A stretch of 45,097 bases of DNA from Oceanospirillaceae bacterium (GCA_047625285.1 JBLHQO010000001.1:1-45097); one strand, 5' to 3'. Numbered from the stretch's first letter, positions 3,333 through 44,841 are shown. The notes: generated by a model not told the origin, from the letters alone. Numbers and translations are program-made.

Positions 3333-3348
3333 TCAGTAACATCAAAGG

Positions 3349-6667: not shown

Positions 6668-6704
6668 AGACTCTTTCCTACCCCCAAGACTATAGGTAAT
6701 TAAA

Positions 6705-8033: not shown

Positions 8034-8077
8034 CCTTGTGTCTTTAACCACAGACTAACGCCTGCGCATACACCAAG

Positions 8078-8581
8078 CTAGATGCGGTCTAATACTAGAT
8101 AACTGAAATCAAACGGATTAGGTTCCTTAGCTGCAATATCCTCACGTGCAATTTCATGCCAAGATGCAGTTTCTAAAGCAGGAAAATAAGCATCACCCTC
8201 AACATGGCGATGTACCCTTGTCAGGTAAACACGGTGTGCTAAAGCTAATGCTTCAGCATAGATTTGTGCCCCACCGATAACCATCACTTCTTCAACTCCA
8301 TTAATCAAGTTGATACTCTCAGCTAAGGCAATCGCTTCATCAAGGCTGGATACCAATTTAATCCCCTGGGTAGGGTAATCCGTTTGGCGGCTAATAACGA
8401 TATTATCTCGCCCTGGTAAAGGCCTGCCAATTGATTCAAACGTCTTGCGCCCCATGATGACAGGTTTGCCTAAGGTCATGGCTTTAAAATACTGAAGGTC
8501 ACCCGGTAAATACCAAGGCAATTGGTTGTTTGTGCCTATGACATTATTTTCGGATGCGGCTACAATCAGTGCAATAGTCAT
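8078..8581 (-). CDS. folA: Dihydrofolate reductase
   Basis: [32 protein letters not shown] and IGGAQIY; 4-bp overlap with thyA stop. Confidence 0.96.
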
Positions 8582-9372
8582 ACGGCAACGGCGCCTTTAA
8601 TGTGTGGATGAGACTGATAATCGAGTAATTCAAAGTCTTCAAATTTGAAATTGAAAATATCATCTACCGCAGGGTTAATGTGCATTTTTGGCAACGCCAT
8701 GGTGTCACGAGACAGCTGTAAATCCACTTGTTCCAAATGATTCGAGTAGAGGTGGGCATCGCCTAGGGTATGTACAAATTCCCCAGCCTCTAAACCACAC
8801 ACTTGAGCCACCATCATGGTTAATAATGCGTAGCTAGCGATATTAAACGGCACACCTAAGAAGATGTCTGCACTGCGCTGATACAACTGACAGGACAATT
8901 TACCATTGGCGACGTAAAACTGAAACATCATGTGGCAGGGAGGTAGAGCCATACGCTCTACGTCGGCCACATTCCACGCGCTCACAATTAAACGTCTTGA
9001 ATCAGGATTGCTTTTTATCTGGTTGATGAGGTCGCTAATTTGATCTATATGGCCGCCATCAGGTTTTGGCCATGATCGCCACTGCGATCCGTATACAGGA
9101 CCCAAATCGCCATTTTTGTCGGCCCACTCATCCCAAATTCGCACACCATTGTCTGTTAGATACTGGGTGTTGGTAGAACCTTTCAAAAACCATAACAATT
9201 CATGAATGATAGACTTGAGATGTAATTTTTTAGTGGTTAGAGCAGGGAAGCCTTGGGACAAGTCAAAGCGCATTTGGTAGCCAAATACACTAAGGGTACC
9301 GGTACCGGTACGGTCTTCCTTTAACGCACCGGTATTGCGCACATGGCGCATTAGTTGAAGATACTGTTGCAT
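8578..9372 (-). CDS. thyA: Thymidylate synthase
   Basis: DRTGTGT, catalytic ALPPCH and YQRSAD.FLGVPFN; start trimmed to ATG 9372 (MQQYL). Confidence 0.97.
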
Positions 9373-9423
9373 ATAAAAACCGTACAAGAACAAATAAAGG
9401 ATACGTTATTTTAACCCTTAACC

Positions 9424-10200
9424 TTAACCCTTAATAGGGCTCTTGCGTACTAATAAATAAATTCCTAGAGCAATCATTGGCACAGACAATAACTGCCCCT
9501 GAGTCATCCAATCGAAGGCGACATAATTTAGATGGGAGTCTGGCTGTCGAACAAACTCCACCACAAACCTCTGCACACCATAACCTATTAAAAACACACC
9601 TGAAACACGCAAGGCTGCTCTAGGCTTTGCTGAGTATACCCAAACCAACGCGAACAGTAACACACCTTCCAGCGCCAACTGGTAGAGCTGCGATGGATGC
9701 CTTGTTAATGAGTCCACATGAGGAAATACCATGCCCCATGGCAAGTCTGTAGGACGCCCCCAAAGCTCACCACCAATGAAGTTACCTAAGCGCCCTGCAC
9801 CTAAACCAATAGGTACAATGGGAGCCACAAAATCCATCACCTGATAAAATTTAAATCGATGTTTGCGGGCAAACCAAACCACTCCAACAATCACCCCTAA
9901 CAAACCACCGTGAAAAGACATACCACCTTCCCACACGCGTAACAACATACTGGGCTGTGCTAAAAAGGCTTCAAATTGATAAAATAATATGTACCCTACC
10001 CGGCCACCTAGCACCACTCCAAGGGCACCAAAGAAGATCAGGTCACTCACTTGGTCTTTAGTGAACCCAGCCGCCTCGGCGCGACGATTGCCTAGCCATA
10101 AAGCAGAGCCGAAGGCCAATAAATACATCACTCCGTACCAGTGAATCGCTACCGGCCCTAGCTGTATAATAACTGGGTCAATACTGGGGAAAACTAGCAT
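9424..10200 (-). CDS. lgt: Prolipoprotein diacylglyceryl transferase
   Basis: WYGVMY, GGMSFHGG, GRLGNFIGGELWGR and RHPSQLY; start ATG 10200 with AAGGA SD. Confidence 0.96.
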   Translation of the reverse strand: MLVFPSIDPVIIQLGPVAIHWYGVMYLLAFGSALWLGNRRAEAAGFTKDQVSDLIFFGALGVVLGGRVGYILFYQFEAFLAQPSMLLRVWEGGMSFHGGLLGVIVGVVWFARKHRFKFYQVMDFVAPIVPIGLGAGRLGNFIGGELWGRPTDLPWGMVFPHVDSLTRHPSQLYQLALEGVLLFALVWVYSAKPRAALRVSGVFLIGYGVQRFVVEFVRQPDSHLNYVAFDWMTQGQLLSVPMIALGIYLLVRKSPIKG

Positions 10201-10208
10201 AACATTCC

Positions 10209-11003
10209 TTAAAACCAAACACTGATTAACATTCGTAAACCCACCAATAACAGCATCCATGCAAACAGTCGTTTTAGCATTTTTGCCGATAGAAGATGGG
10301 CGATTTTAGCACCATAAGAGGCCGCTATAAAACTGGTAGAGACTATACCAAGCAAGGCAGGCAAATAGATGTAACCTAAACTGTGTGGCGGCAACATGGG
10401 GTTGCCCCAACCCAAAACGCCATTAGATATAGCGCCTGCAATGGCAATAGCAAAGCCGCAGGCGCTGGCAGTCGCTACGGCTTTTTGCATCACTAATTGA
10501 CGATTAGATAACCAAGTAACCAACAAATTGCCACCACCAATACCAAACAGGGCCGAAACCCAGCCGATCAAAGTGCCGGTAATACCCAACCTCAGAGTCC
10601 CTGGCACCTGCAATTGACCTGCCCCTGGTGGCGAGAACATCATTCTTAGGCTCAAAAAAATGGCAAACGCACCAAAACTAGCTTGTAAGAAAAGGGCTGG
10701 GATAGTTAACGCTGTATTGACACCAACAAAGGACCCTAGCAGCATACCCACGGCAATAGGCTTAACTAAATACCATTCAATTGCGCCCTTTTTGTGATGA
10801 GTACGTATGGCACTCAATGAGGTAAATACAATGTTGGCTAGAGAGGTTGCAATAGCCATATAAAATACGATGTCGGGGGTAATACCCTGCAGATTAAATG
10901 CCAATACCAAAGCCGGCACCACAATAACGCCACCGCCAATGCCAAACAAACCCGCTAATAATCCAGCGATCGCACCAAGGGCCATATAAGCAACAAAAAT
11001 CAT
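10209..11003 (-). CDS. TSUP / sulfite exporter TauE/SafE family membrane protein
   Basis: Internal repeat GLFGIGGG / ALFGIGGG, AIATSL, highly hydrophobic; start ATG 11003. Confidence 0.85.
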   Translation of the reverse strand: MIFVAYMALGAIAGLLAGLFGIGGGVIVVPALVLAFNLQGITPDIVFYMAIATSLANIVFTSLSAIRTHHKKGAIEWYLVKPIAVGMLLGSFVGVNTALTIPALFLQASFGAFAIFLSLRMMFSPPGAGQLQVPGTLRLGITGTLIGWVSALFGIGGGNLLVTWLSNRQLVMQKAVATASACGFAIAIAGAISNGVLGWGNPMLPPHSLGYIYLPALLGIVSTSFIAASYGAKIAHLLSAKMLKRLFAWMLLLVGLRMLISVWF

Positions 11004-11082
11004 GCGTTCACATCTAACCAAGAAAGAGGCTATTATCTACGCTCCGCTCCATAAGCGCAAAGTTTAGGATAGTTAATCATTC

Positions 11083-11883
11083 ATGTGCCTCATTGTTTTA
11101 GCCCACCAGCTCAATAACGATTACCCGCTCATTATGGCAGCCAATCGTGATGAATTTCGCCGTCGTCCAACTCAAAATATGTATTGGTGGCCTGATATTG
11201 AAATATTGGCTGGCAGAGATCTTGAAGCTGGTGGTACTTGGCTTGCCCTACATAAGAATGGCCGCTGGGCTGCAGTGACTAACTTTCGCAAGGTCACTAC
11301 CAGTAAAGCGGCCATTAATAATGCGACTATAAATAAAGCGACTAGCGATCAATCAACGGCACTCAGATCAAGAGGTCACTTAGCCCTCAATTTCCTTAGT
11401 CAAACTAAAAGCGCTATCGATTTTGCCAATACGCTTCAAACAGACCTGTTCGCAGGGTTCAATTTATTACTTTGGGATAATCGTGAGCTCGTTTTTTGCG
11501 CCAACGAAGAACAAAACCAACCTCGAATACTAGCTGCCGGATTATACGGCTTAAGTAATGGTCGCCTAGATAGTGATTGGCCGAAGGTTCACCATGTTAA
11601 AACTATTTTGCAGCAGTCTTTACATAAACCCCCACAACACCAACAACTGCAACAGATGATGCAGGATACACAGATAGCTACAGACCAAAACCTACCCAAC
11701 ACAGGTATTGCCATAGCCTGGGAAAGACGGCTATCTGCTTGTTTTATTGATGCGCCTGAATATGCTTATGGCACCCGCACCTGCATTAGTGTGTATCGAG
11801 ACAAGTTTGGCAACATGGATGTCCACGAAACCTGTTTTGATCATTCAACACCGCTACAGCAACACTTTAACTGGGCCCACTAA
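11083..11883 (+). CDS. NRDE / TANGO2 family protein
   Basis: N-terminal MCL, AANRDEF..RPT, AGRDL.AGGTWL, SRG and YGTRT. Confidence 0.92.
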   Translation: MCLIVLAHQLNNDYPLIMAANRDEFRRRPTQNMYWWPDIEILAGRDLEAGGTWLALHKNGRWAAVTNFRKVTTSKAAINNATINKATSDQSTALRSRGHLALNFLSQTKSAIDFANTLQTDLFAGFNLLLWDNRELVFCANEEQNQPRILAAGLYGLSNGRLDSDWPKVHHVKTILQQSLHKPPQHQQLQQMMQDTQIATDQNLPNTGIAIAWERRLSACFIDAPEYAYGTRTCISVYRDKFGNMDVHETCFDHSTPLQQHFNWAH

Positions 11884-11888
11884 TCACC

Positions 11889-12512
11889 ATGTATAGCAGC
11901 CTAATTTTCATTAACGGCCTCGCCTTAAGCATCGGCTTAATCGTCGCTATCGGTGCACAGAATGCCTTCCTATTGAACCGTGCTTTGCGTAACCAGCATC
12001 AATATGCAGTGGCCACTTTTTGCAGCATTACTGATGCCAGCCTTATCTGTTTAGGTATATTTGGTATGGGGTCTTTAGTACAAGCACAGCCTCAATTATT
12101 ATTGTGGATCACCTGGGGCGGGGCGTTATTTTTGTTTATTTATGGGGCCTTAGCTTTTAGAGCCTCAGCTGGCAATAACGCAATGAAAGAAGACTCTAGC
12201 GAAAGTGAATACTCACTTCTTAAAGCACTCACTGTGGCAGCAAGCGTTAGCTTACTCAACCCCCATGCATACTTAGATACCCTAGTACTACTTGGCGGCA
12301 TTAGTAGTGCGTACGTGGGTAGCGAAAAGATATGGTTTGGATTTGGCGCCGTGAGCGCTTCATTTATTTGGTTTTTTGGTTTGGCTTGGGGGGCTCGCTG
12401 GCTTATGCCTGTGTTTAAAAACCCCATGGCTTGGCGGGTACTTGACGGCCTTATCGGCGTTATTATGTGGAGTATTGCGGCTGGGTTAATTGCCCACATA
12501 TCGGCTATGTAA
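11889..12512 (+). CDS. LysE/ArgO family amino-acid exporter
   Basis: LIVAIGAQNAF, LLNPHAYLDT and WRVLDGLIG motifs. Confidence 0.9.
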   Translation: MYSSLIFINGLALSIGLIVAIGAQNAFLLNRALRNQHQYAVATFCSITDASLICLGIFGMGSLVQAQPQLLLWITWGGALFLFIYGALAFRASAGNNAMKEDSSESEYSLLKALTVAASVSLLNPHAYLDTLVLLGGISSAYVGSEKIWFGFGAVSASFIWFFGLAWGARWLMPVFKNPMAWRVLDGLIGVIMWSIAAGLIAHISAM

Positions 12513-14762
12513 GCGTGTGAGGCCTGCGGCCTTAAGGTTATCTCGGATCACTTGCTGCACACCATCACTTCCGGCTTGCTGTAGTGCTTGTTGTAACATC
12601 TGCTGGGCTTGCGTTAGGGTAAAGTTACGGATGACTGACTTTACTTTTGGCAGGCTAGCCGCGTTCATCGACAAACTATCATAACCCATACCCATAAGCA
12701 GAAGTGCTCCAGCAGGGTCGCCAGCCAGTTCACCACATAAACTCACTGGAATATCAGCGGCTTTGGCTGCATCAACTACATGTTGTAGCGCCATCAATAC
12801 CGCTGGGTGCATAGTGTGATATAAATCTGCCACCCGTGGGTTATCTCGGTCTACCGCCAATATATACTGCGTTAAATCATTACTACCCACAGATATAAAG
12901 TCCACTCGCTCAGCAATGTGTTTGGCTTGATATACAGCGGCGGGCACTTCCACCATTACCCCAATGGGAGGGCGCACCAGCTTATAACCTTCTTCACATA
13001 ACTCTGAAAAAGCTTGATCTATCCAACGAATAGACTCATCAACTTCGCTCACATGGGTGATCATAGGCAACATAATACGAAGGTTATCTATGCCTTCACT
13101 GGCCTTGAGCATAGCTCGAATTTGCACCAAAAATATTTCTGGGTGATCTAACGTCACACGAATGCCGCGCCAACCTAAAAATGGATTATCTTCTTTAATG
13201 GCAAAATATGGCAAGTTTTTATCGCCACCTATGTCCAAGGTACGCATGGTCACAGGAAGAGGCGCAAAGCCTTGTAATTGCGTGCGATAACAATCGGTTT
13301 GCTCATCTTCAGACGGAAAGTGTTCCTTAATCATAAAGGGTACTTCGGTACGGTATAGACCTACCCCCTCGGCACCCTGATCCAGCGAACGGCTTACATC
13401 TAGAGGTAAGCTAGTATTCACTAACAAAGGGACTGTATGACCGTCGCGCGTTTGCGCCGGCACATGGCGTAGAATTTCTAGCTCTTTGGTAAACGAGGCT
13501 TCTTCGGCGATTGTTTGTTCGTATTGACGACGCAGGTCCTGACTTGGATTGAGGAAGATACGCCCGATGTAGCCGTCAATAACCACCTCTTGGCCTTCCA
13601 TACGTCGGCATGGGAAGTCTACCGCGCCCATCACCGTAGGAATGCCCATGGAACGAGCCAATATAGCAGCATGGGAGTTATTTGAACCCAAGGTGGAGAT
13701 GATGGCTTTGAGCTTATGGGCAGGCACTTCTGCCAACATAGTCGCCGTCACTTCCTCTGCCACCAATACGGTAGCATCTTCAAATTCACGCACTTGGATA
13801 TTGGTTTGCTGCAACTCTGCCAAAATGCGCCGACCAAGATCTCGAATGTCCGTCGCTCTTTCCCTTAAATAAGGATCGTCCATGGCTTCAAACGCACCAA
13901 TGTGAGTCTGCACGACTTGCCGTAATGCACCTTGGGCCCATTGACCTTGACGTATCTTTTGTACTACCTCGCCAGCCAAGGCGTTGTCATCAAGCATACG
14001 CATATAGACTTCGAACAATTCTTGTTCTTGATTCTTTAGATTGCGAGCTAAGGTGCGGCTGACAATTTTTATTTTTCGGCGCACAGCCTCTAGCGCTGTT
14101 TGAAAAGCCTCAACTTCGTTTTCAGGGTTACGGCAGCGCCGATCTGGCACTTTATCTAGGTCTGCGGGTGGCGCTATTACGGCTACATAGCCAATGGCTA
14201 CACCACCAGAACCACTTACACCTTCATAAGCCAAGTCTAAGCTAGCTTCATCGGCTAAAGCGTCCTGCCTTAAACCACCACCAGTGGCTTCAGCGTGGGC
14301 AATAAAACCAGCCAATTGAGCCGACAAGGTGATCAACATAGCTTCTTCTTCAGCGCTAAACTGACGTTCGCTACGCTGCTGCACAACTAAGATACCCAAC
14401 ACCTTACGGTGGTGAATGATAGGCACACCTAAAAAGGAGCTAAAGCCCTCTTCACCCGTTTCTTGCACATAGTGAAAATTAGGATGCTCTGCCGCACGCG
14501 TTATATTAATGGTCTCGGCTTTAAGCCCCACCAACCCCACCAGACCCTTGCCTGACGGCAGGCAGGCTTTGCCAATAGAAGCTTGATTAAGGCCCTTGGT
14601 AGCCATCAGTACAAAATTGTCTGTTTGCGGAAAATGTAAGTATATAGAGCACACGTCAGTACGCATGGCGCGCCGAACTTGGTGCACTACCAACTTCAAG
14701 GCCGATGGTAAATCTTCCGCGGCGCTCACCGCTTGGATTATTTTACGCAGATTGTGCAGCAT
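12486..14762 (-). CDS. ptsP: PTS nitrogen-regulatory enzyme I (GAF domain plus PEP-protein phosphotransferase)
   Basis: N-terminal GAF domain, phospho-His motif SNNSHAAILARS, GLYRTE, RTLDIGGDK, NPFLGWRGIR and CGELAGDP; downstream of rppH. Confidence 0.96.
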   Translation of the reverse strand: MLHNLRKIIQAVSAAEDLPSALKLVVHQVRRAMRTDVCSIYLHFPQTDNFVLMATKGLNQASIGKACLPSGKGLVGLVGLKAETINITRAAEHPNFHYVQETGEEGFSSFLGVPIIHHRKVLGILVVQQRSERQFSAEEEAMLITLSAQLAGFIAHAEATGGGLRQDALADEASLDLAYEGVSGSGGVAIGYVAVIAPPADLDKVPDRRCRNPENEVEAFQTALEAVRRKIKIVSRTLARNLKNQEQELFEVYMRMLDDNALAGEVVQKIRQGQWAQGALRQVVQTHIGAFEAMDDPYLRERATDIRDLGRRILAELQQTNIQVREFEDATVLVAEEVTATMLAEVPAHKLKAIISTLGSNNSHAAILARSMGIPTVMGAVDFPCRRMEGQEVVIDGYIGRIFLNPSQDLRRQYEQTIAEEASFTKELEILRHVPAQTRDGHTVPLLVNTSLPLDVSRSLDQGAEGVGLYRTEVPFMIKEHFPSEDEQTDCYRTQLQGFAPLPVTMRTLDIGGDKNLPYFAIKEDNPFLGWRGIRVTLDHPEIFLVQIRAMLKASEGIDNLRIMLPMITHVSEVDESIRWIDQAFSELCEEGYKLVRPPIGVMVEVPAAVYQAKHIAERVDFISVGSNDLTQYILAVDRDNPRVADLYHTMHPAVLMALQHVVDAAKAADIPVSLCGELAGDPAGALLLMGMGYDSLSMNAASLPKVKSVIRNFTLTQAQQMLQQALQQAGSDGVQQVIRDNLKAAGLTRLHSRYVGN

Positions 14763-33004: not shown

Positions 33005-33403
33005 TTACTCGGTGCCGTAATCAACGTCAGACTCAAGCTCTGGATCTGACGCCCTAGCTTGGTCTATCAGATTACTCAGGTAATTACCCCGAGATAAACT
33101 GTCGTCAAAGTGGAATCGTAAGGTAGGGACAATACGCAACTTCATACGCTGGCCAAGTTGGCTACGCAAAAAACCTGACGCATTGTTCAGCGCTTTAATC
33201 GATTCGCGAATCTCGTCTTTATCTTCACCACCATTTAAAATAGTGACGAATACCTTAGCGTGAGACAAGTCTCGGGATACTTCTACAGCACTCACTGTAG
33301 CCATACCAACACGAGGATCTTTCACCTCACGCTGGATTAGGCCGGCCAGCTCACGCTGAATTTGGTCTGCCACACGCTGGGTGCGGCTATATTCTTGTGC
33401 CAT
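33005..33403 (-). CDS. rbfA: Ribosome-binding factor A
   Basis: [28 protein letters not shown] and LRIVP.LRF. Confidence 0.97.
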
Positions 33404-33412
33404 GATCAGCCC

Positions 33413-36001
33413 TTACAAGCTACGCTCAACTTCGACAGTGTCGAAGACTTCGATTAGGTCGCCAACACGAACGTCGTTGTAGCTCTTCACACCGATACCA
33501 CACTCAATGCCGTTACGAACATCCGTAACCGCATCTTTGTGACGACGCAAGGACTCCAACTCACCTTCGTAAACAACCACGTTATCTCGCAATACTCGAA
33601 TAGGCTTGCTACGGTGAACCGTGCCTTCAGTTACCATACAGCCAGCAATCTGGCCCAACTTAGGCGAACGGAACACTTCACGAACCTCTGCAATACCCAC
33701 AATAGTTTCGCGCAATTCAGGCGCTAACATACCAGAAAGAGCATCTTTAACATCGTTAATGATGTCATATATTACGCTGTAATAACGCAGATCAATACCT
33801 TCTTTCTCGATAAGCGCTTTGGCTGGAACATCAGCACGAACGTTAAAACCGAAGATGACGGCATTTGAAGCCACGGCAAGGTTAACATCAGACTCAGCGA
33901 TACCACCCACACCACTAGAAACAACCTGCACCTTAACTTCTTCGGTACCAATATCCATTAGCGAGCTAGTTAACGCTTCCAAAGAACCACGTACGTCGGT
34001 TTTAAGTACCACATTTAATACAGAGGCTTGGTTCTTGCCCATGTTCTCAAACATAGCATCCAACTTGGAGGCTTGCTGGCGCGCAAGTTTCACGTCGCGG
34101 TACTTACCTTGACGGAACAAGGCCACTTCACGGGCTTTCTTTTCGTCTGGCACTACGGCGAAATCTTCACCCGAATCAGGCGTGCCACCTAAACCTAGAA
34201 TTTCTACTGGAATAGAAGGGCCAGCACTGGTGATCGGCTTGCCATTTTCGTCCAACATGGCACGTACACGGCCGAACTGCTGGCCAGCTAGAACGATATC
34301 GCCTTTCTTCAAAGTACCGTTCTGAACCAATATAGTCGCTACAGAACCGCGGCCTTTATCAAGACGGGCTTCAACCACAACACCTTTGGCTGGTGCCTCA
34401 GGCACTGCTGTAAGCTCTAATACTTCGGCCTCTAGCAATACGGCGTCTAGCAAAGATTCAATGCCATCGCCTGTTTTGGCCGACACTGGAATGAACTGAG
34501 TTACACCACCCCAATCTTCCGGCACTACATCACGGCTAGACAATTCTGTCTTCACTCGATCTAGATCTGCGCCTTCTTTGTCCATTTTATTGATCGCAAC
34601 AATCAAAGGTACGCCAGCGGCTTTAGCATGCTGTATCGCTTCTTCTGTTTGTGGCATCACACCGTCATCGGCAGCAACTACCAAGATAACAATGTCAGTT
34701 GCCTTAGCTCCACGGGCACGCATCGCTGTAAATGCAGCGTGTCCTGGAGTATCTAAGAAAGTAACCATGCCTTTGTCAGTATCTACGTGGTAAGCACCAA
34801 TGTGCTGGGTAATACCACCAGACTCACCAGACGCCACCTTGGTGGAGCGAATAGAGTCTAATAGCGATGTCTTACCATGGTCAACGTGGCCCATTACCGT
34901 CACCACTGGAGCGCGACTGATTTCTTTGCCTTCGTAATTAATGCTTTCAACTACGGCTGTTTCGATGGCATCGTCCATCACCAATTTAGCTTTATGACCC
35001 ATCTCTTCAACCACAATAGTGGCTGTATCTTGGTCAATAACTTGGTTGATGGTTGCCATTGCACCCATCTTAAACATCACTTTAATAACTTCAGCAGCCT
35101 TCACTTTCATGCGCTGAGCTAAATCGGCTACGGTAATAGATTCAGGCAAGTTGACTTCATGAACGACCTTTTCTGTAGGCACTTCAAAAGCATGTTCGCC
35201 ATTGCCAGAGCGCTTAGGTGCAGCCAACTTTCCTTTGTTACGTGCGCCTTTACCACGGCTACGATCATCACGCCCGCCAGTAGTACGACCTTTACCTTTA
35301 CCCTTACCTGCAGGTGCGCCGCCACGTGGCTTATCGGGAGACGTAAAAGTCTTCTGATGAGCAGGCTTCTTCTTGGCATCTTCAACAGCCTTTTGACGAG
35401 CTACCTCAGCATTTGCAGTTACTTTAGCAGCTGCAGCATCTGCCTCTGCATCTGCTTTAACCTTAGTTTGATCGCCTTTTTCGCTTGCAGTTGCAGCGCT
35501 TACCGCTGCACTTGCTACAACTTCAGCTGTATTGGCTACAACCGCTTCTGCACTTGCGGCGGCTTCTGCCGCGCTTGCTGCCGCTGCCGCTGCAGATTTA
35601 GCATCAGCGTCCGCTTGCACTTGCGCCGCTTCACTTGCTTGACGGGCTGCCAATTCAGCTTTTTCAGACTCAATTACAGCTGCTTGATCGCCGTCTTCTG
35701 CTTTAACGTAGGTGCGCTTTTTACGCACTTCAACGTTAACCGTGCGCTTACCTGCCGCACCAGCAACTTTTAACGTAGTGGATGTCTTACGTTGCAAGGT
35801 GATCTTCTTAGGGCCGTCGGCGTTACCGCCGTCTCCACCATGGGATTTTTGCAAGTGAGATAAAAGCGACTTACGCTCTTCGTCTGATACTGCGTCTGTA
35901 GCTGCACGACGAGTAAGGCCGGCTTCTTCCATTTGGTTAAGCAATCGCTCAACCGGAACACCTACCGTTTCGGCGAGGGTGTTGACAGTTTGATCTGTCA
36001 T
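33413..36001 (-). CDS. infB: Translation initiation factor IF-2
   Basis: [20 protein letters not shown] and NKMD; ATG 36001 chosen for AGGAG spacing (alternative 36007). Confidence 0.98.
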
Positions 36002-36032
36002 AATCATATTCTCCTAATAGGTCGGCGATGGT

Positions 36033-37514
36033 TTAAACAAACCAAGGGGCGCGGGCCGTCATAATTAATTCTGCTGCTTTTTCGTCGCTCAAACCTTCAA
36101 TGTCTGAGATCTCATCAACAGCTTGCTCGGCCAAGTCTTCCATGGTGATGATGCCACGGCTTGCCAATACAAATGCAAGGTGAGCATCCATACCTTCCAT
36201 TTCTAGCAAATCTTGAGCTGGCTCAGAGTTGTCTAGCTGCTCTTCCGCTGCAAGGGCCTGGTTAAGCAACTTATCTTTTGCACGAGTACGGAGCTCTTCA
36301 ACAATGTCCTCATCCAAGCCGTCAATCGCCAACATTTCATCCAACGGCACGTAGGCAATTTCTTCAAGGCTAGTAAAACCTTCTTCTACCAACATCTGTG
36401 CAAACTCTTCGTCAATGTCTAAAGCATCTACAAAAACCTGCACCACCCCACCCACTTCATCTTGTTGCTTGGCGGCAGCGTCTTCTTCAGACATCACGTT
36501 AATGGTCCATCCGGTCAGTTCGGAAGCTAGTCGGACGTTTTGGCCATTACGACCAATAGCCATGGCCAAATTCTCATCACTAACAGCCACATCCATCGCA
36601 TGACGGTCTTCATCAACAACGATAGAACTTACTTCTGCAGGGGCCATCGCATTGATAACCAACTGCGCTGGATTATCATCCCAAAGTACAATATCAACGC
36701 GCTCGTTGTTCAATTCTCCAGTAACCGCTTGCACACGCGAACCACGCATACCAACACAAGCGCCAATAGGATCAATACGACCATCGTTGGTCTTCACTGC
36801 AATTTTAGCACGCGATCCTGGATCACGGGCCACTGCACGAATTTCGATGACTTCTTCAGAAATCTCTGGCACCTCAATCTTAAATAGCTCTACCAACATT
36901 TGTGGCTCTGTGCGACTTAAGAAAAGCTGTGGACCTCGGCTTTCAGTACGTACTTCGGCCAACAAGGCCCGAATACGATCACCCATACGGAAGGTTTCAC
37001 GGCCGATCAATTGATCCCTCGCCATGAGTGCTTCTGCATTATTACCCAGATCCACGATCACATTATCACGAGTCACTTTTTTAACGCTGCCACTAATAAT
37101 TTCGCCAATACGACCACGGTATAGCTCGACTACCTTAGCGCGCTCAGCTTCACGAACCTTTTGCACAATGACTTGCTTAGCCGTTTGTGCGGCAATACGA
37201 CCAAAGGTTTCGGTAGGCAACTCTTCTTCTACTATGTCACCTAACTCAAGCTCAGGCTTAGTCTCTTGAGCATCCTCAAGAATCAATTCAGCCTCTGGGT
37301 TGGTGTACACTTCATCAGTCACCACTGTCCAACAACGCGTGGTAGTGGCTTCACCTGTCTTACGATCGATAGAGACTCTAATATCGCTCTCTTCGTGGAT
37401 GCGCTTGCGTGTTGCAGTGGCCAAAGCTAATTCTATAGCTTCAAAAATAACGTCTTTGGGCACGTCTTTTTCATTTGAAACTGCTTCTGCAACTAACAGA
37501 ATTTCTTTATTCAT
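36033..37514 (-). CDS. nusA: Transcription termination/antitermination factor NusA
   Basis: [29 protein letters not shown]1/KH domains, [12 protein letters not shown] and acidic C-terminal repeats. Confidence 0.98.
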
Positions 37515-37552
37515 TTCAAGCTCTCACTTAATTTGGACTTATAAAACCGGGC

Positions 37553-38008
37553 TTAGAAGCGCGGTACAATATTGGCTTTTTCAATGCTGTCAAAAGGCAA
37601 CAAATATTCTTCATCATCAATCTGCAATATCACATCATCACCTTCAATGCCGCTCAGCAAACCGGTAAAACGACGCCGACCGTCAAAGGCCAAACGCAAT
37701 TTCAAACTTAGTTTTTCACCAATGCTAGCTTGGTACTGCTGCAAGCTAAACAAAGGACGATCCAACCCAGGAGATGACACTTCTAGCGTGTACTCTCCTG
37801 TAATGGGATCTTCTACATCCATCACTGCAGCGACTTGCCGACTTACGTCTGCACACTGCTCCACACCAATACCATTGGCATGGTCTATGTATACTCGTAA
37901 AGTGGTATGACGACCCTGAGATATGTACTCAATACCCCAAAGGTCACAACCACAGGCCGCCACTGCTGGCGCTACCAATGCTTCAATTTGTGCTGCTGCA
38001 CCTGCCAT
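37553..38008 (-). CDS. rimP: Ribosome maturation factor RimP
   Basis: LRVYID, DVEDPI...YTLEVSSPGLDRPLF and IEKAN; start ATG 38008 (the longer ORF runs into a tRNA). Confidence 0.95.
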   Translation of the reverse strand: MAGAAAQIEALVAPAVAACGCDLWGIEYISQGRHTTLRVYIDHANGIGVEQCADVSRQVAAVMDVEDPITGEYTLEVSSPGLDRPLFSLQQYQASIGEKLSLKLRLAFDGRRRFTGLLSGIEGDDVILQIDDEEYLLPFDSIEKANIVPRF

Positions 38009-38025
38009 TTTAATATCCCAAAACG

Positions 38026-38053
38026 CAAAAAGCCCCATAATAGGGGCTTTTTG
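38026..38053 (-). terminator. rimP-leader hairpin (terminator/attenuator after the tRNA-fMet genes)
   Basis: CAAAAAGCCCC-N6-GGGGCTTTTTG, 11-bp perfect stem ending 17 nt before the rimP ATG. Confidence 0.8.
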
Positions 38054-38160
38054 TTGACTATATGTATTCAGTCTCGCTGCTAAACTTAACAACGAACCCC
38101 TGAAGTATCCCTTCATGACTTGCGCCAAAGGAAACCGTAACCATACGTGTCCCTGAAAAA

Positions 38161-38237
<77 letters not shown>

Positions 38238-38475: not shown

Positions 38476-38919
38476 TCACCAACTGCCCACATTGGGCATC
38501 GAAACCCACGGCTGCGTAGGCACTAAAGCGCCCCCTACCTGCAACAATTCTATAGACACATTATCCGGCGACTTTACAAACGCCATACGCCCATCTCGTG
38601 GAGGCCTATTAATGACAACCCCAGCCTCCATCAATGTATGGCAAAGCTGGTAAATATCATCCACTTCGTAAGCCAAGTGTCCCCAGCTTCGACCCGCGCT
38701 CAACTCTTCGTCATCATCCCAGTTATGGGTAAGCTCTAACAACGGTGCCTGAACACCTTGAGCACTACTTTCATCAAGCACTGCCGCCAGAAACACCAAA
38801 GTGAAGCGCCCCGATTCATAGTCCGTTCGCTTCACTTCAACTAGCCCCAATTGATTGCACCAAAATTCTAAAGAAGCCGTTAAATCTCGCACTCTAACCA
38901 TGGTATGTAGATAACGCAT
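38476..38919 (-). CDS. gloA: Lactoylglutathione lyase (glyoxalase I, VOC family)
   Basis: MRYLHTMVRV, RFTLVFL, LELTHNW, GHLAYEVDDIY, RPPRDG and SIELLQ. Confidence 0.8.
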   Translation of the reverse strand: MRYLHTMVRVRDLTASLEFWCNQLGLVEVKRTDYESGRFTLVFLAAVLDESSAQGVQAPLLELTHNWDDDEELSAGRSWGHLAYEVDDIYQLCHTLMEAGVVINRPPRDGRMAFVKSPDNVSIELLQVGGALVPTQPWVSMPNVGSW

Positions 38920-38943
38920 TGGCAACCCCTAATTGATGAAGTT

Positions 38944-39477
38944 TTAGCGACTAAGTACCTGTATCGCACCGGTAAACCCACGTAGAGAAGCATTCAACAG
39001 AATTCCCTCAGCTTGAGCGAAGGGGCGAAACGCAACTTTCAACGTGGTTCCTTCACGCAACAGCTTGAGGAGCTTCTCGTCCGCTGCAATAGTAGCCGCA
39101 CAACCTTGTGCCACACAAGTGACAAAAGGAGCATTGATCTCGTTGCTCTCATCCACTTGAAGAGCTATGCCTGACTGAAGGTTGAGACCTAAAGGCAAGG
39201 TAACCTCCATCACGATGTTTTCAGCCTGCTTAAACAGCGTAATACGCATCGCAAAACTGACCTGCCCGTCTTTCTCAACTTGCATGGTTTGAGTGATTTG
39301 GCAGTTAGTTACGTCTTGCTGCTCCACACAAATACTTTGCCAGTCTTGATAGCTATTGCGCGTTACAGCTGGCTCATTAGCAACAGCTTCCGTTGTTACT
39401 GTGGTTGATTCTGCCACCGCAGATGGAGCAAACAAGATCGGCAGGGTTAAGACGAACAAAGATAAAAGGCGACGCAT
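38944..39477 (-). CDS. Invasion-associated locus B (IalB) family exported protein
   Basis: Signal peptide, YQDW...C, C...Q, LPLG..L..G...VD, C...GC and SL.GF..A. Confidence 0.8.
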   Translation of the reverse strand: MRRLLSLFVLTLPILFAPSAVAESTTVTTEAVANEPAVTRNSYQDWQSICVEQQDVTNCQITQTMQVEKDGQVSFAMRITLFKQAENIVMEVTLPLGLNLQSGIALQVDESNEINAPFVTCVAQGCAATIAADEKLLKLLREGTTLKVAFRPFAQAEGILLNASLRGFTGAIQVLSR

Positions 39478-39786
39478 GTAGGTATCTCGCTAAATTAGAG
39501 GGTCTTTAGATGCTGGCACACTAACACATCCGCATATTAGAAGGAATCAGTGATTTCAGCCAAAGCTGAGGATCGTGCTGAAGCGTGTCAAACCGCGCTT
39601 GCCAAAGATTCCCTGCGAGGCCGCGCAGAGCCCTTAATACAAACCACCAACAGACAGTTGCCAATTAACAGACCAAAAAAAGCACCATGGTTATGGGTTT
39701 TTAGATCATCTATGATTGGTAATAGATGACAATTTGGTACCCGCGCTTCGAAAACAAGTACTTAATTTTATATTTTCCAGAGGGTT

Positions 39787-40317
39787 TTAGTCGTTTGAAT
39801 GCGCCCAATCAGCGTGTCTGGGAGCTTTTTTTGTTTTTGACCATTCTTCAAGCATTTGCCATTTCACTTTATCAAGCCGTTCAATTTTAGCTTTTTCTTG
39901 TTTGTCGGGTGCAGCAAGCTCTAAACGGTGACCGCTTGGATCAAAAAAGTAAATAGAGTGGAAGACTGAATGATTGACTACCCCAAGCACCTCAACCCCA
40001 TTACTTTCTAGATGGTTTTTATACATCAACAAGGTGTCCATATCCTTAACTTTAAAGGCAATATGTTGTACCCAGTCTGGTGTGTTTTGATCCCTACCCA
40101 TTTTTGGTTTCGTTGGAAGCTCAAAGAATGCCAATATATTATCTTGGCCTGCATCTAAAAACACATGCATGTAAGGGTCTGGCTCTTTAGTGGAAGGCAC
40201 TTGGTCTTCAGCGAGAGCCAATACAAAATCCATTTTTAGATTTTTCACATACCACTCAACTGTTTGTTTTGCATCATGACACCGATAGGCAACGTGATGA
40301 ATATGTTCAATTTTCAT
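39787..40317 (-). CDS. VOC-family metalloprotein; candidate alternative homogentisate 1,2-dioxygenase
   Basis: HHVAY, QHIAF and HSIYFFDPSGHRLE motifs; third gene of the hppD-fahA operon with a 5-bp gap. Confidence is for the family; function is inferred. Confidence 0.8.
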   Translation of the reverse strand: MKIEHIHHVAYRCHDAKQTVEWYVKNLKMDFVLALAEDQVPSTKEPDPYMHVFLDAGQDNILAFFELPTKPKMGRDQNTPDWVQHIAFKVKDMDTLLMYKNHLESNGVEVLGVVNHSVFHSIYFFDPSGHRLELAAPDKQEKAKIERLDKVKWQMLEEWSKTKKAPRHADWAHSND

Positions 40318-40322
40318 GTGAC

Positions 40323-41633
40323 TTATCCTCTACTTATGGATGGCAATATTGTTCCGGAGCACTCTCCAAAACCAATACGAGGCAACCCTTCATTATGGCA
40401 CCAACCTCGTAATATAACGGTGTCGCCATCCTCTAAAAAGGTTCTAGTTTCTCCGTTTGACAAGGTGATTGGGTGCTTACCACCTTCCGTTGCTTCAAGT
40501 AATGCTCCAACACTGTCTTTGGTAGTGCCAGACTGCGTACCACTGCCAAAAAAGTCACCAGCTTTTAAATTGCACCCATTAACCGAGTGATGTGTCACCA
40601 TTTGAGCGATAGACCAATACGCCTGATTAAAATTACTTAGGCCAACTCGTTCTGCAGTGTCCATTGTTGGGGTTTTTAATAAAACCTCTAACTTCATATC
40701 CACCGCACCAAACGCCCTATGTTGTGTTGAATCTAAATAATCTAATGGTTGTGGGTGATCGCTTGGCCTAGTCCACTCTTGCCTGTAAGGGGCCAGTGCT
40801 TCCATTGTTACAATCCAAGGAGAGACCGTAGAGGCGAAGCTCTTTGATAAGAAGGGCCCTAGAGGTTGGTATTCCCAGCCCTGAATGTCACGAGCCGACC
40901 AATCATTAAACAAACACAGCCCAAACACATGTTGTTCAGACTCTTCAATACAAATTGGTTTGCCTAACTCATTACCTTTACCAATATAGATACCAACTTC
41001 CAGCTCATAGTCCAATCTTTTACACGGAGCTAATATTGGTTTGTCTTGATCAGGCGCTTTCAATTGCCCATAAGGGCGGTGAAATTTTTGTCCAGATACG
41101 CCGATAGAAGAACTACGGCCATGATACCCAATAGGAATCCATTGGTAGTTCGGTAATAAAGGATTATCTGGTCGAAATAGCTTACCAACATTTGTGGCAT
41201 GATTTATCGATGTATAAAAATCGGTGTAATCACCGATATTGGCCGGCACCTTATATTCGGCGTCAGATTGAGACACTAAGCAGCTTGCTAGAGCGCCTTG
41301 GTGTTTGGAACCTTCTCTTAAGGCACGTGATAAAGAAAGCCGTATAGCAGACCATGTTGGCGCACCTAATTGCATAAAATCATTTAGTGCATCTTGTGAT
41401 AATAGGTCTAAAGCGCAGTCGAGGTGATCATCAAATAAGCCTGCTTTATACGCCGCAGGCATATCGACGATGAAATCGCCGATTGCAACACCAGCCCTAA
41501 AAGCCTGATCAGTATTACGTGCCTTAAATATGGCAAACGGTAGGTTCTGAATTGGGAAGTCTGTTGTGGGGCTATTGGCCGATGCAACCCAACTTTGTAG
41601 GCCTATATCATGGGTTTCGTTTAGTTTTGACAT
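40323..41633 (-). CDS. fahA: Fumarylacetoacetase
   Basis: DFPIQNLPF, GDYTDFY.S..HA.NVG, YHGRSSS, LDYELE, NDWSARDIQ.WEYQPLGPFLSK and RIGFGEC. Confidence 0.96.
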   Translation of the reverse strand: MSKLNETHDIGLQSWVASANSPTTDFPIQNLPFAIFKARNTDQAFRAGVAIGDFIVDMPAAYKAGLFDDHLDCALDLLSQDALNDFMQLGAPTWSAIRLSLSRALREGSKHQGALASCLVSQSDAEYKVPANIGDYTDFYTSINHATNVGKLFRPDNPLLPNYQWIPIGYHGRSSSIGVSGQKFHRPYGQLKAPDQDKPILAPCKRLDYELEVGIYIGKGNELGKPICIEESEQHVFGLCLFNDWSARDIQGWEYQPLGPFLSKSFASTVSPWIVTMEALAPYRQEWTRPSDHPQPLDYLDSTQHRAFGAVDMKLEVLLKTPTMDTAERVGLSNFNQAYWSIAQMVTHHSVNGCNLKAGDFFGSGTQSGTTKDSVGALLEATEGGKHPITLSNGETRTFLEDGDTVILRGWCHNEGLPRIGFGECSGTILPSISRG

Positions 41634-41652
41634 TTTTTATACCGCTTATCAA

Positions 41653-42732
41653 TTATGTATTATTGCCGACAACGCCACGCTTAACCTGGTCACGCTCAAT
41701 CGACTCAAACAGCGCTTTGAAGTTGCCCTCGCCAAACCCATCGTCTTTTTTTCGTTGTATGAACTCAAAGAATACAGGGCCTATTAATGGTTTAGAGAAA
41801 ATCTGAAGCAACAGCCTTGGATCATCATTTTCTGTAGACCCATCAAGCAAGATACCTCGTGTTTGTAACTCACTCACTGGCTCACCATGATTTGGTAATC
41901 GCTGATCTAACATACTGTAATATGCTTCTGGTGGAGCGTTCATAAACGGCGTTCCCATGGCCTTTAACCTATCCCAACACTCAAGCAAATTATCGCAAGA
42001 AAAAGCAATATGCTGAATTCCTTCGCCATTGTATTGCATTAGAAACTCTTCAATTTGCCCTGTTTCTTTAGAGGCTTCTTCATTTAACGGTATACGGATT
42101 AGACCATCAGGAGCCGTTAGCGCTTTTGATAAAAGGCCTGTGTACTCACCTTTAATGTCAAAATATCTAATTTGTCTAAAATTGAATAAACTTTCATAGA
42201 AGTTGGACCAGTAGTCCATTCTGCCACGATATACGTTATGGGTTAGATGATCGATCACGTTAAATCCACAACCTTCAGGGTTACGATCCACTCCTGGAAT
42301 AAACTCAAAATCAATATCATAGATTGAGGTTCCTTCTTCAAAGCGGTCAATTAAATACAAGGGGGCTCCACCTATACCTTTGATTGCAGGCAAGCGTAAC
42401 TCCATTGGCCCAACTGGAATTTCAATCGGTTGGGCCCCAAGTTCCAGTGCACGCTCGTAAGCAACTCTTGAATTTTTTACTCTAAACGCCATTCCGCACG
42501 CGCTTGGCCCGTGTTCTTGAGCAAAATAAAAGGCATTACTGGCAGGCTCATAATTGATCAAAAGGTTAATGCCGCCTTGGCGATATAAATCAACTTGCTT
42601 GGTTTTGTGTGAGGCAACTTTGGTGAAGCCTGTCATTTCAAACACAGGCTCAAGGACGCCACGTTCAATAGAACAAAACTCAATGAATTCAAATCCGCAT
42701 AAGCCCATCGGATTCTCAAAAAGGTCAGTCAT
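41653..42732 (-). CDS. hppD: 4-hydroxyphenylpyruvate dioxygenase
   Basis: [29 protein letters not shown] and FFEFIQRK...[18 protein letters not shown]. Confidence 0.97.
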
Positions 42733-42807
42733 AGTTGCTCCTTTGATAATTTGGCAGATTTCTATTCGCTGCTACTTAAATCACTTTGTGATTGTGAAGT
42801 AACCGCG

Positions 42808-42854
42808 TATATTGGTTGTAATTACAACCAATATAGTTGCAATTACAACTATAT
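42808..42854. promoter_or_regulatory. Two tandem palindromic operators (likely MarR-binding)
   Basis: Perfect 28-bp TATATTGGTTGTAATTACAACCAATATA (42808-42835) and one-mismatch 24-bp ATATAGTTGCAATTACAACTATAT (42831-42854). Confidence 0.8.
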
Positions 42855-42883
42855 GCAAGATAAAAGAATCGGAACACATATCC

Positions 42884-43348
42884 ATGACAACTAAACAGCC
42901 ACCAGTCTTAGTGCTAGAGCGGTTTCTTCCTTATCGCATTTCTATACTTTCTAACCGTATTAGCGGGATTATTGCTAAAACGTATAAAAATAAATTTGCA
43001 CTTTCTGTGAATGAATGGCGAATAATGGCAATGCTTGGAGAGTATCCCGGCGCTTCTGCGGATGAAGTATCCGCTAAAATTCAAATTGAAAAATCAATTG
43101 TGAGCCGAGCGTTAAAAAACTTATTGTTACGTACATTAGTGGAACGAGTAGTTGATACCGAAGATAGACGCAGGCAAAACCTTAGCCTTAGTACCACTGG
43201 CTTAGATATTTATAACCAAATAGTGCCTGTTTCATATAATTATGAGCAGCAATTACTGACGTGTTTTACTGAAAAAGAACAAACAGTGTTTGATACCCTA
43301 AGTGAAAAACTATACCGCCATGCTGAGAAAATTGACGTGGAAAGCTAA
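42884..43348 (+). CDS. MarR-family transcriptional regulator, divergent from hppD
   Basis: L.LERFLPYR, LS..EWR, KSIVSRAL..L and EDRRRQ.LSL...G; start ATG 42884 because the upstream TTG lies inside the operator. Confidence 0.9.
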   Translation: MTTKQPPVLVLERFLPYRISILSNRISGIIAKTYKNKFALSVNEWRIMAMLGEYPGASADEVSAKIQIEKSIVSRALKNLLLRTLVERVVDTEDRRRQNLSLSTTGLDIYNQIVPVSYNYEQQLLTCFTEKEQTVFDTLSEKLYRHAEKIDVES

Positions 43349-43631
43349 ACGACAAAAAAATAACACTAGACAATAGGCCCCTACAGTCAGAGCGCAGTAA
43401 TATGTCTAACAGTTACTTGGAAGTAACGTAATCACTCCCAAACTGCAAAGAGCATGGATGCGTTATTAATGACCTGAATGAAATAATTAGAAGAAAAAAC
43501 GACGCCGCAAACAATTGCTAGCTGCCTAAGCCCATAGTTTCAGCCTGTCAGCCAAACAAAAGCCGATCACAATCAAGGGTATTTTTTGGTCTACTATCGC
43601 CAGATTTACCAGCTTTGGTAGCCATGTAGCA

Positions 43632-43917: not shown

Positions 43918-44841
43918 TCACTTTGGGAGTGGGGTCCGTGGAGGTGCAGGCACAGTTTTAGACCGTGCTCGCTCCCTCCAGACTATTATCAACCCACCAG
44001 TTGCGATCAGCAGGGCACCAGGGAATAAGGTACTCCATGGTGCTTCGTCAAAGAACAGCCACCCCAAGACGAATGCGAGTGGAATGCCGAAATAACTGAA
44101 TGGGGCTAAATTACTCTGCTCAGTCATCCGATAGCTTACCACCAGAAACAGCACTGCTGTGCCACCAAACACTCCCATCAACACGATCCAGCCCATGTCA
44201 TTCGCAGAGGCTATCGGTGTGAAACCACCCCAGAAGTAAGCAATCAAAGTTGCTCCAATTAACGATGTGACGGAAGAATACAGATTGACCAACGGGCTTG
44301 GGACATCGTCATCAAACAAACGTGCTGTCACCCCAACTAGGGCGTAAAACGCGGCCGCTGCCAAAGGTAAAAAAGCATAAAGGGAAAAGCCTGCGCCACC
44401 TGGCCGAATAACCATGATAACACCAATAAAGCCCACCAAAACGGCACTCCAGCGTACCCAGCCAACCCGCTCTCCCAAAATGGGGATTGCCAGTGCAGTG
44501 GTAAATAATGCACTGGCATAAGTGATAGTCGATGCCGTAGCAAACGCCATTAACCCCAAGGACATATAAAAGCAAAGTTGGGCAAAGGTCACAACAGCGC
44601 CGCGCAAAAAAGCCAATTTCCACTGACGCAGTTTTAGACGCCTGCCAGACATTCGCCACACCTTTGATGACCATAAAGCAATTATTGATGGCACCAGCCC
44701 AAACAGGTTCCTCCACACCGATAGCTCGGCTGCTGAGTAGCTGCTTGAAAGGTGCTTGATAATTAAGCCCATGGCATCAAACAACGTCAATGCGACAAGG
44801 CTTAGAATGATGGCAAGGCCAGTCCGGTCTGTGGGGCGCAT
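43918..44841 (-). CDS. DMT (EamA/RhaT) family transporter
   Basis: About ten hydrophobic segments, LGERVGW.RW.AV.VGF.GV....RPG and LAPFSY...FVLGWLFF.E.P. Confidence 0.9.
   Translation of the reverse strand: MRPTDRTGLAIILSLVALTLFDAMGLIIKHLSSSYSAAELSVWRNLFGLVPSIIALWSSKVWRMSGRRLKLRQWKLAFLRGAVVTFAQLCFYMSLGLMAFATASTITYASALFTTALAIPILGERVGWVRWSAVLVGFIGVIMVIRPGGAGFSLYAFLPLAAAAFYALVGVTARLFDDDVPSPLVNLYSSVTSLIGATLIAYFWGGFTPIASANDMGWIVLMGVFGGTAVLFLVVSYRMTEQSNLAPFSYFGIPLAFVLGWLFFDEAPWSTLFPGALLIATGGLIIVWRERARSKTVPAPPRTPLPK

What the first reader, a model, noticed from the sequence alone, without database searches (positions are those of the whole stretch)
39787..42732. Tyrosine catabolic operon without hmgA: small VOC protein as candidate new-type homogentisate 1,2-dioxygenase
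Seen: a tight operon hppD-(19 bp)-fahA-(5 bp)-VOC with no hmgA or maiA in the window. Known: HppD makes homogentisate and FahA needs fumarylacetoacetate, so ring cleavage (normally the cupin HmgA) and isomerisation (MaiA) are missing. The 176-aa protein has a putative Fe(II) triad H8/H85/E133 plus H51, H116 and Y123. Its GVVNH...SIYFFDPSGHRLE segment closely resembles GPTRH...TIYFFDPSGNRNE of catechol 2,3-dioxygenase XylE (recalled sequence). It has LAFFE where glyoxalase I has the metal-ligand LEL (compare 38476-38919). Homogentisate is a hydroquinone, and VOC-fold hydroquinone dioxygenases (PcpA, LinE) exist. Inference: a single-domain, non-homologous replacement of HmgA. Alternative: a glutathione-independent maleylacetoacetate isomerase. 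I cannot verify whether this has been published.
Basis: partly seen in the sequence, partly recalled or inferred. Interest (0 to 1): 0.85.

Follow-up and report, generated by a model that had tools for sequence, protein, structure and literature searches.

The report
Small non-cupin homogentisate dioxygenase, known type
This bacterium's tyrosine-breakdown operon likely opens the homogentisate ring with a small glyoxalase-shaped enzyme instead of the textbook HmgA, a swap already described in Acinetobacter, so it is a new copy of a known enzyme and not a new kind.

Summary
[quoted passage not shown] The matching paper, Seo et al. 2025, was seen only as a citation. New link made here: the 'hmgA' whose disruption caused pyomelanin and whose re-expression abolished it in A. 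baumannii (PMC9431530) is this VOC gene, as the published primers match its ends. Among HppD-positive genomes, VOC and cupin HmgA are largely complementary: family sample 26 VOC only, 6 HmgA only, 3 both, 0 neither; phylum sample 14, 67, 6, 5. 38 of 39 VOC genomes also have MaiA, which argues against the isomerase alternative. Two corrections: Glu66 does keep the glyoxalase-I ligand position, and maiA survives here as a roughly 40-nt stub after the VOC stop, also seen in public runs. The genome is 54% complete, so absences are weak. No assay of this protein exists. The scan found this family twice before on other DNA.

The parts
41653..42732 (-). hppD, 4-hydroxyphenylpyruvate dioxygenase, 359 aa
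   Evidence: TIGR01263 377.7 bits, cut-off 277; dN/dS 0.02-0.04 against two relatives
40323..41633 (-). fahA, fumarylacetoacetase, 436 aa
   Evidence: TIGR01266 546.2 bits, cut-off 375.3; dN/dS 0.05-0.07
39787..40317 (-). VOC-fold protein, 176 aa; predicted homogentisate 1,2-dioxygenase of the Acinetobacter (9U42) type
   Evidence: phmmer E 4e-79 to 9U42, next hit 5e-6; model TM 0.88/0.91, rmsd 1.8, 68% identity, Z 20.3; dN/dS 0.05-0.08
39739..39780 (-). 5' stub of maiA (about 14 codons, start codon reads CTG), followed by unrelated sequence
   Evidence: 31 of 42 nt identical to the maiA start of G070, same 6-bp spacing after the VOC stop; intact maiA at this place in the 5 closest metagenome loci; the same break point in contigs of 4 of 4 runs laid
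42884..43348 (+). divergent MarR-family regulator, likely controller of the operon
   Evidence: PF01047/PF12802 (scanned from 42887); same position in G070 and close loci; regulation inferred
42815..42849 (.). two 14-bp palindromes 21 bp apart (42815-42828, 42836-42849), candidate MarR operators
   Evidence: the pattern occurs nowhere else in the 1.09-Mb assembly and recurs in L029 and L049-L052; binding untested

Best explanation
The 176-aa VOC-fold protein encoded after hppD and fahA is likely an Fe(II)-dependent homogentisate 1,2-dioxygenase that would open the ring of homogentisate to maleylacetoacetate, filling the step that cupin HmgA fills in the textbook pathway. Pathway: HppD makes homogentisate from 4-hydroxyphenylpyruvate and FahA splits fumarylacetoacetate to fumarate and acetoacetate (family assignment shown, chemistry from established knowledge). 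Metal site (inferred): His8, His85 and Glu133 would bind Fe(II) as a 2-His-1-carboxylate triad; His85, His116, Tyr123 and Glu133 align with XylE His214, His246, Tyr255 and Glu265 (alignment shown, roles of those XylE residues recalled); His51 or His116 would act as the acid/base; invariant Glu66 holds the fourth glyoxalase-type position and could be a ligand or second-shell residue. The substrate would bind through a ring hydroxyl, O2 would add next to it, and an extradiol-like rearrangement would cleave C1-C2 (by analogy, untested). The cis-trans step has lost its linked gene in this lineage; it is most likely supplied by an unlinked maiA in the unassembled 46% of the genome or by glutathione with another transferase (inferred). 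The divergent MarR likely represses the operon through the two palindromes (inferred).
For: [quoted passage not shown] 9U42 differs at 8 of 181 aligned residues from the A. baumannii protein in fahA-maiA-VOC-iclR-hppD, which is 65% identical to ours. Literature: a passage of the Tol 5 paper says this gene was shown to be a homogentisate 1,2-dioxygenase in Acinetobacter by Seo et al. 2025. In PMC9431530 a transposon in 'hmgA' went with pyomelanin and re-expression abolished it (passages); its cloning primers match the first and last bases of the VOC gene, L026:5989 and 6537 (supplement). Distribution: of 35 HppD-positive genomes among 80 of the family, 26 have VOC only, 6 HmgA only, 3 both, 0 neither; of 92 HppD-positive genomes among 240 of the phylum, 14, 67, 6 and 5; only 1 of 148 HppD-negative phylum genomes has a close VOC. 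The closest relative G070 (98% complete, 86% identity) has hppD-fahA-VOC-maiA and no HmgA. In 80 metagenome loci the neighbours are HppD 42, FahA 36, PhhA 20, MaiA 9, HmgA 0. H7, H8, H51, E66, H85, H116, Y123 and E133 are invariant in 115 of 115 close homologues.
Against: No assay of this protein; the Seo paper could not be read, so its kinetics and ligand assignment were not seen. VOC and HmgA co-occur in 4 of 39 family and 6 of 21 phylum VOC genomes; in G116 and G244 they lie in one cluster, so replacement is not strict. 10 of 39 family VOC genomes have no HppD over the cut-off, and in 3 of the 9 loci examined (G028, G042, G056) none of my reference pathway genes lies within about 7 kb. Tol 5, which has the cluster, did not grow on homogentisate or 4-hydroxyphenylpyruvate as sole carbon source. 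A 2020 paper saw the same A. baumannii gene in pigmented strains and supposed it inactive (PMC7646211 passages). The genomes counted are related, so the Fisher p values overstate.
Confidence: 0.93

Rival explanations
1. The protein is a glutathione-independent maleylacetoacetate isomerase replacing MaiA, with an HmgA elsewhere in the genome.
For: maiA is reduced to a stub in this window and the only TIGR01262 hit in the assembly is SspA; 46% of the genome is missing; some VOC proteins are isomerases (established knowledge).
Against: 38 of 39 VOC-positive family genomes have MaiA over the cut-off, 34 of 35 among those lacking HmgA; maiA follows VOC directly in G070 and the five closest loci; none of 6 same-genus genomes has HmgA; loss of the Acinetobacter orthologue gives pyomelanin, which points to a block at homogentisate.
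Confidence: 0.02
2. The protein is a ring-cleaving dioxygenase whose preferred substrate is a related hydroquinone (a substituted homogentisate or gentisate-like compound), homogentisate being a secondary substrate.
For: Kept beside a cupin HmgA in G116, G244, G018, G059 and G071; often beside a PRK08132-type FAD monooxygenase and an MBL-fold gene; weak likeness to two-domain ring-cleaving proteins 1ZSW and 3OAJ.
Against: Here it is linked to hppD and fahA with 19- and 5-bp gaps, and HppD makes only homogentisate from the tyrosine route (established knowledge); no HppD-positive family genome lacks both enzymes.
Confidence: 0.03
3. The protein is a glyoxalase I or similar detoxifying VOC enzyme handling reactive by-products of the pathway.
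For: All four glyoxalase-type ligand positions are kept; glyoxalases I are among the fold hits at Z about 15; databases name it glyoxalase.
Against: No TIGR00068 hit at E 1e-3; 18% identity to the separate glyoxalase I-like gene at 38476-38919; the title of Seo et al. 2025 says structural mimicry without glyoxalase I function (reference list).
Confidence: 0.01
4. The operon is decaying in this lineage: maiA went first and the other genes no longer carry flux.
For: The maiA stub; 4 of 6 same-genus genomes lack both hppD and VOC.
Against: All three frames are intact, all conserved residues kept, dN/dS 0.02-0.08 (averaged over whole branches, so very recent relaxation is not excluded); regulator and palindromes conserved.
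Confidence: 0.05

Closest known systems
Acinetobacter VOC-fold homogentisate 1,2-dioxygenase (PDB 9U42; Seo, Hwangbo, Kim, Park 2025, Proteins 93:2150, doi 10.1002/prot.70020, seen only as a citation and through one citing passage)
   Same: 68% identity over the whole length, TM 0.88/0.91, rmsd 1.8 A, all conserved His/Glu/Tyr positions shared, same pathway neighbours.
   Different: Host lineage, gene order (hppD-fahA-VOC against fahA-maiA-VOC with hppD opposite), MarR in place of IclR, and maiA cut to a stub.
Cupin homogentisate 1,2-dioxygenase HmgA (TIGR01015, PF04209)
   Same: Predicted reaction and place in the pathway; both use Fe(II) with two His and a Glu (recalled).
   Different: Unrelated fold, 380-440 aa against 176 aa, no sequence match; largely complementary distribution.
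Type I extradiol dioxygenases (XylE, PDB 1MPY) and single-domain L-DOPA dioxygenase (6ON1/6ON3)
   Same: VOC fold; His85, His116, Tyr123, Glu133 align with XylE His214, His246, Tyr255, Glu265; L-DOPA dioxygenase TM 0.64, Z 14.2.
   Different: Those cleave catechols; XylE has two domains and 307 aa; TIGR03211 score 33 against cut-off 320.
VOC hydroquinone dioxygenases PcpA/LinE/MhqO
   Same: VOC superfamily ring cleavage of a para-diol (PcpA passage); weak matches to 1ZSW (E 5e-6) and 3OAJ MhqO (E 0.014), with His51 and the FFE motif aligned to 1ZSW.
   Different: About 320-340 aa with two domains; xenobiotic substrates.
Glyoxalase I
   Same: Fold and four aligned ligand positions.
   Different: No family hit; extra C-terminal helices 141-173; pathway context.

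Membership tests
VOC-fold homogentisate dioxygenase (9U42 type) | Full-length orthology to the characterised enzyme | tested here: met
   E 4e-79, residues 3-174, next hit 5e-6; 68% identity
VOC-fold homogentisate dioxygenase (9U42 type) | Single-domain VOC fold with C-terminal helices | tested here: met
   Predicted model, pLDDT 91.5; TM 0.88, rmsd 1.8 over 167 columns, Z 20.3 against 16.6 for the next
VOC-fold homogentisate dioxygenase (9U42 type) | Conserved His/Glu/Tyr set shared with 9U42 | tested here: met
   H7, H8, H51, E66, H85, H116, Y123, E133 identical in 9U42 and in 115 of 115 close homologues
VOC-fold homogentisate dioxygenase (9U42 type) | Linkage to hppD, fahA, maiA | tested here: met
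   Window, G070, 80 loci; maiA here only as a stub
VOC-fold homogentisate dioxygenase (9U42 type) | Fe(II)- and O2-dependent cleavage of homogentisate | not testable with these tools
   Needs an assay; shown only for Acinetobacter orthologues in print
VOC-fold homogentisate dioxygenase (9U42 type) | Geometry of the metal site (which three or four residues bind) | not tested
   Coordinates of the model and of 9U42 were not inspected; the triad is inferred from alignment
Cupin HmgA | Match to TIGR01015 or PF04209, cupin fold | tested here: not met
   No such hit for the protein; VOC fold
Glyoxalase I | Match to TIGR00068 or GloA models | tested here: not met
   Not among 23 NCBIfam hits at E 1e-3, while the neighbour at 38479-38919 scores 104.8 bits
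Glyoxalase I | Four metal-ligand positions His/Glu/His/Glu | tested here: met
   H8, E66, H85, E133 align with the neighbour's His, Glu, His, Glu; that these are the GloI ligands is recalled
Catechol 2,3-dioxygenase (XylE type) | TIGR03211 cut-off and two-domain length | tested here: not met
   33.2 bits against 320.2; 176 aa against 303 positions
PcpA/LinE/MhqO hydroquinone dioxygenases | Sequence membership | tested here: inconclusive
   Only weak matches, 1ZSW E 5e-6 and 3OAJ E 0.014; half their length
Maleylacetoacetate isomerase (GST zeta type) | Match to TIGR01262 | tested here: not met
   No hit for the VOC protein
HmgS (MarR-family regulator of hmg genes, Leyn et al. 2016) | Orthology of the divergent MarR and operator motif | not tested
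   Passages of PMC5343134 describe HmgS; its sequence and motif were not compared

The most novel reading that the evidence does not exclude
This lineage runs the homogentisate pathway with no maleylacetoacetate isomerase at all: having deleted maiA while keeping hppD, fahA and the VOC dioxygenase under purifying selection, it passes maleylacetoacetate on by uncatalysed glutathione isomerisation, by direct hydrolysis on FahA, or by a second activity of the VOC enzyme at its retained glyoxalase-type Glu66.
Probability: 0.12. Interest if true: 0.55.

Novelty: new member of a known kind. Interest (0 to 1): 0.22.

Why it matters
The enzyme type is published, so this copy is not a discovery. Its practical value is annotation: no NCBIfam model names the family, at least 8000 clusters match at E 1e-20 (capped), and it accounts for 14 of the 19 HppD-positive phylum genomes sampled that lack HmgA, so pathway reconstructions that look only for hmgA will wrongly call a gap or predict pyomelanin. 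Tying the 2022 A. baumannii 'hmgA' genetics to the VOC gene gives the family in vivo support that the structure title alone does not. The maiA stub raises a small testable question on whether the isomerase is dispensable.

Tried and rejected
Single-sequence fold: pLDDT 42, unusable; repeated with alignment A3. Seo et al. 2025 not held by DOI or PubMed id; what I recall of its abstract is not used as evidence. Paper searches: (AcHGD, 9U42, noncanonical homogentisate) found nothing, and none of the listings showed a paper on the family's distribution or on MaiA-less bacterial pathways, which is weak because most subscription papers are not searched. The 50%-cluster profile search did not run, so remote relatives were not surveyed. 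Promoter and terminator scan: 8 and 4 sites against 9.1 and 3.2 in shuffles, nothing above chance. Search for a relocated maiA: the assembly's only hit is SspA; laying a relative's maiA on four runs at 80% likeness gave only short or low-depth pieces beyond the stub, which proves nothing. HmgA tblastn in plasmids and PF04209 in one A. baumannii plasmid record added nothing. PcpA ligand numbers were not found in the one paper read. Rows set aside: G054 counted HppD-negative (partial match below cut-off), G313 counted HmgA-negative (fragment, E 6e-12), five genomes with only distant VOC matches (25-43%) counted VOC-negative in the main table; G000 left out. No complex prediction was run, since a pass would follow from likeness to 9U42.

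Full report
Observation. The three genes lie on the minus strand as described: hppD 41653-42732, fahA 40323-41633 and a 176-aa ORF 39787-40317, with gaps of 19 and 5 bp. HppD and FahA pass their NCBIfam cut-offs; the small protein hits PF00903 and no curated cut-off. The named residues are present. A MarR-family gene is divergent from hppD. The assembly is 1.09 Mb in 88 contigs and 53.8% complete, so finding no HmgA in it says little by itself; the case has to rest on relatives.

Identity of the small protein. Its best PDB sequence hit is 9U42 (E 4e-79; next 5e-6). [quoted passage not shown] 9U42 differs at 8 of 181 positions from A. baumannii WP_000141645.1, annotated only as VOC family protein and lying in fahA-maiA-VOC-iclR with hppD opposite.

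Literature. Passages of the Acinetobacter Tol 5 paper (bioRxiv 10.1101/2025.10.30.684093 and PMC13572102) state that this glyoxalase-annotated gene was shown to be a homogentisate 1,2-dioxygenase by Seo et al. 2025 (Proteins 93:2150). That paper is not held; I saw its citation and title only, and linking it to 9U42 is my inference from organism and title. [quoted passage not shown] PMC7646211 (passages) found no hmgA homologue in a pigmented A. baumannii, noted a ring-cleaving-domain gene between hmgC and hmgR, and supposed it inactive. PMC9431530 (passages and supplement) reported a pigmented strain with a transposon in 'hmgA', an unpigmented strain 5 SNPs away with the gene intact, and loss of pigment on re-expression. 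Its two cloning primers match the first and last bases of the VOC gene exactly (L026:5989 and 6537).

Distribution. In 80 genomes of the host family, 39 have a close VOC homologue (57-86%), 10 HmgA, 35 HppD over the cut-off and 47 MaiA over the cut-off. Among the 35 with HppD: VOC only 26, HmgA only 6, both 3, neither 0. 38 of the 39 VOC genomes have MaiA. In 240 genomes of the phylum, 92 have HppD: VOC only 14, HmgA only 67 (long and short types together), both 6, neither 5; of 148 without HppD, 1 has a close VOC and none a full HmgA. Three of the five 'neither' genomes have a distant VOC (37-41%). These samples are related by descent, so the Fisher values overstate. Rows set aside are listed under Tried and rejected. 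Of 572 confirmed metagenome matches the best 80 were kept; their flanks, many cut short, hold HppD 42, FahA 36, PhhA 20, a PRK08132-like FAD monooxygenase 11 (two of them weak), MaiA 9 and HmgA 0. The monooxygenase context would fit a second source of homogentisate from hydroxyphenylacetate (recalled; not tested).

Results against a strict replacement. VOC and HmgA co-occur in 10 of 60 VOC genomes. In G018, G059 and G071 the VOC gene converges on an hmgA-fahA-maiA run; in G116 and G244 it lies in one co-oriented cluster with hmgA, fahA, an MBL-fold gene, the monooxygenase and maiA. Ten family VOC genomes lack HppD over the cut-off; I examined 9 of those loci, and in G028, G042 and G056 none of my reference genes is near. 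Redundancy or a shifted substrate range may explain these; neither was tested.

Residues and mechanism. H7, H8, H51, E66, H85, H116, Y123 and E133 are invariant in 115 of 115 distinct close homologues from the loci (the window's own included); H120 varies; four distant homologues keep all of them but have Asp at 66. In the alignment to XylE (1MPY), H85, H116, Y123 and E133 fall on His214, His246, Tyr255 and Glu265 (counted); that His214 and Glu265 are iron ligands and His246 and Tyr255 active-site residues is recalled. This supports H8/H85/E133 as the triad, with H8 placed by its position on the first strand (inferred). I did not inspect metal-site coordinates. The proposed chemistry, Fe(II)-bound substrate, O2 addition and extradiol-like ring opening to maleylacetoacetate, is by analogy.

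The missing isomerase. In G070 (same genus, 98% complete) and in the five closest metagenome loci (82-91%) an intact maiA follows the VOC gene. In the window the same place, 6 bp after the stop, holds about 14 codons of maiA (31 of 42 nt identical, 0 of 100000 shuffles; the next 90 nt match at 22 of 90), with CTG at the start and a stop soon after. This is not a fault of this assembly alone: one 5139-nt contig of run X11 spans 38900-43400 with 12 differences, and in 4 of 4 runs the main contig leaves a relative's maiA at the same point. The runs are ice and seawater metagenomes of 2024 and may be one campaign or include the source. The only MaiA-like hit in the assembly is SspA. The three intact genes show dN/dS 0.02-0.08. 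G031 of the same genus has an unlinked maiA, so an unlinked copy in the missing part is the simplest reading.

Regulation. Two 14-bp palindromes 21 bp apart lie between hppD and marR, unique in the assembly and present in G070 and L049-L052. A MarR-family regulator of hmg genes, HmgS, was predicted in Alteromonadales (PMC5343134 passages); orthology was not tested.

Verdict. The feature is real, the proposed function is very likely right (0.93), and it is a new member of a family already solved and named in 2025 with genetic support from 2022. Two earlier reports of this scan on other genomes reached the same assignment; I had reached it before that call and do not count them as support. Interest 0.22.

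Noticed in passing
window 39739-39780 (-): 5' stub of maiA directly after the VOC stop; the rest of the gene is replaced by unrelated sequence; the same break in four public runs.
   Followed up: yes
window 42815-42849: Tandem 14-bp palindromes between hppD and marR, conserved in relatives; candidate MarR operators overlapping the upstream TTG start that the ORF caller gives marR (42812), so the ATG at 42884 is the likelier start.
   Followed up: partly
L133 (G116) 2756-9631; L134 (G244) 5686-12688: Cupin hmgA and the VOC dioxygenase in one co-oriented cluster with fahA, an MBL-fold gene, a PRK08132-type FAD monooxygenase and maiA: two ring-openers side by side, reason unknown.
   Followed up: partly
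L129 (G107), L130 (G320), L131 (G203), L132 (G294): A distant clade (36-41% identity) keeps H7, H8, H51, H85, H116, Y123, E133 but has Asp for Glu66; two of four lie beside an FAD monooxygenase, none beside hppD or fahA. Three of these genomes have HppD but neither HmgA nor a close VOC.
   Followed up: partly
G253, G287: HppD over the cut-off but no HmgA of either type and no VOC match with the queries used: possible third ring-opener or natural pigment producers.
   Followed up: no
L038 (G028), L040 (G042), L042 (G056): Close VOC homologues (62-64%) in one genus with no hppD in the genome and no pathway gene nearby; MaiA is present elsewhere.
   Followed up: partly
L045:4475-5614 (G013): Short-type HmgA (380 aa) scores weakly or not at all on PF04209 and TIGR01015; 16 of 240 phylum genomes have it and 12 of them were missed by PF04209 at E 1e-3.
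   Followed up: yes
window 38476-38925 (-), 38944-39477 (-), 43918-44841 (-): Glyoxalase I-like gene (TIGR00068 104.8 bits, cut-off 120), IalB-family gene and EamA transporter flank the operon; the flank differs in G070, so they are probably not part of it.
   Followed up: partly
window 33005-38221 (-): Ordinary rimP-nusA-infB-rbfA run, named from the translations by recall; no family scan was run on it.
   Followed up: no
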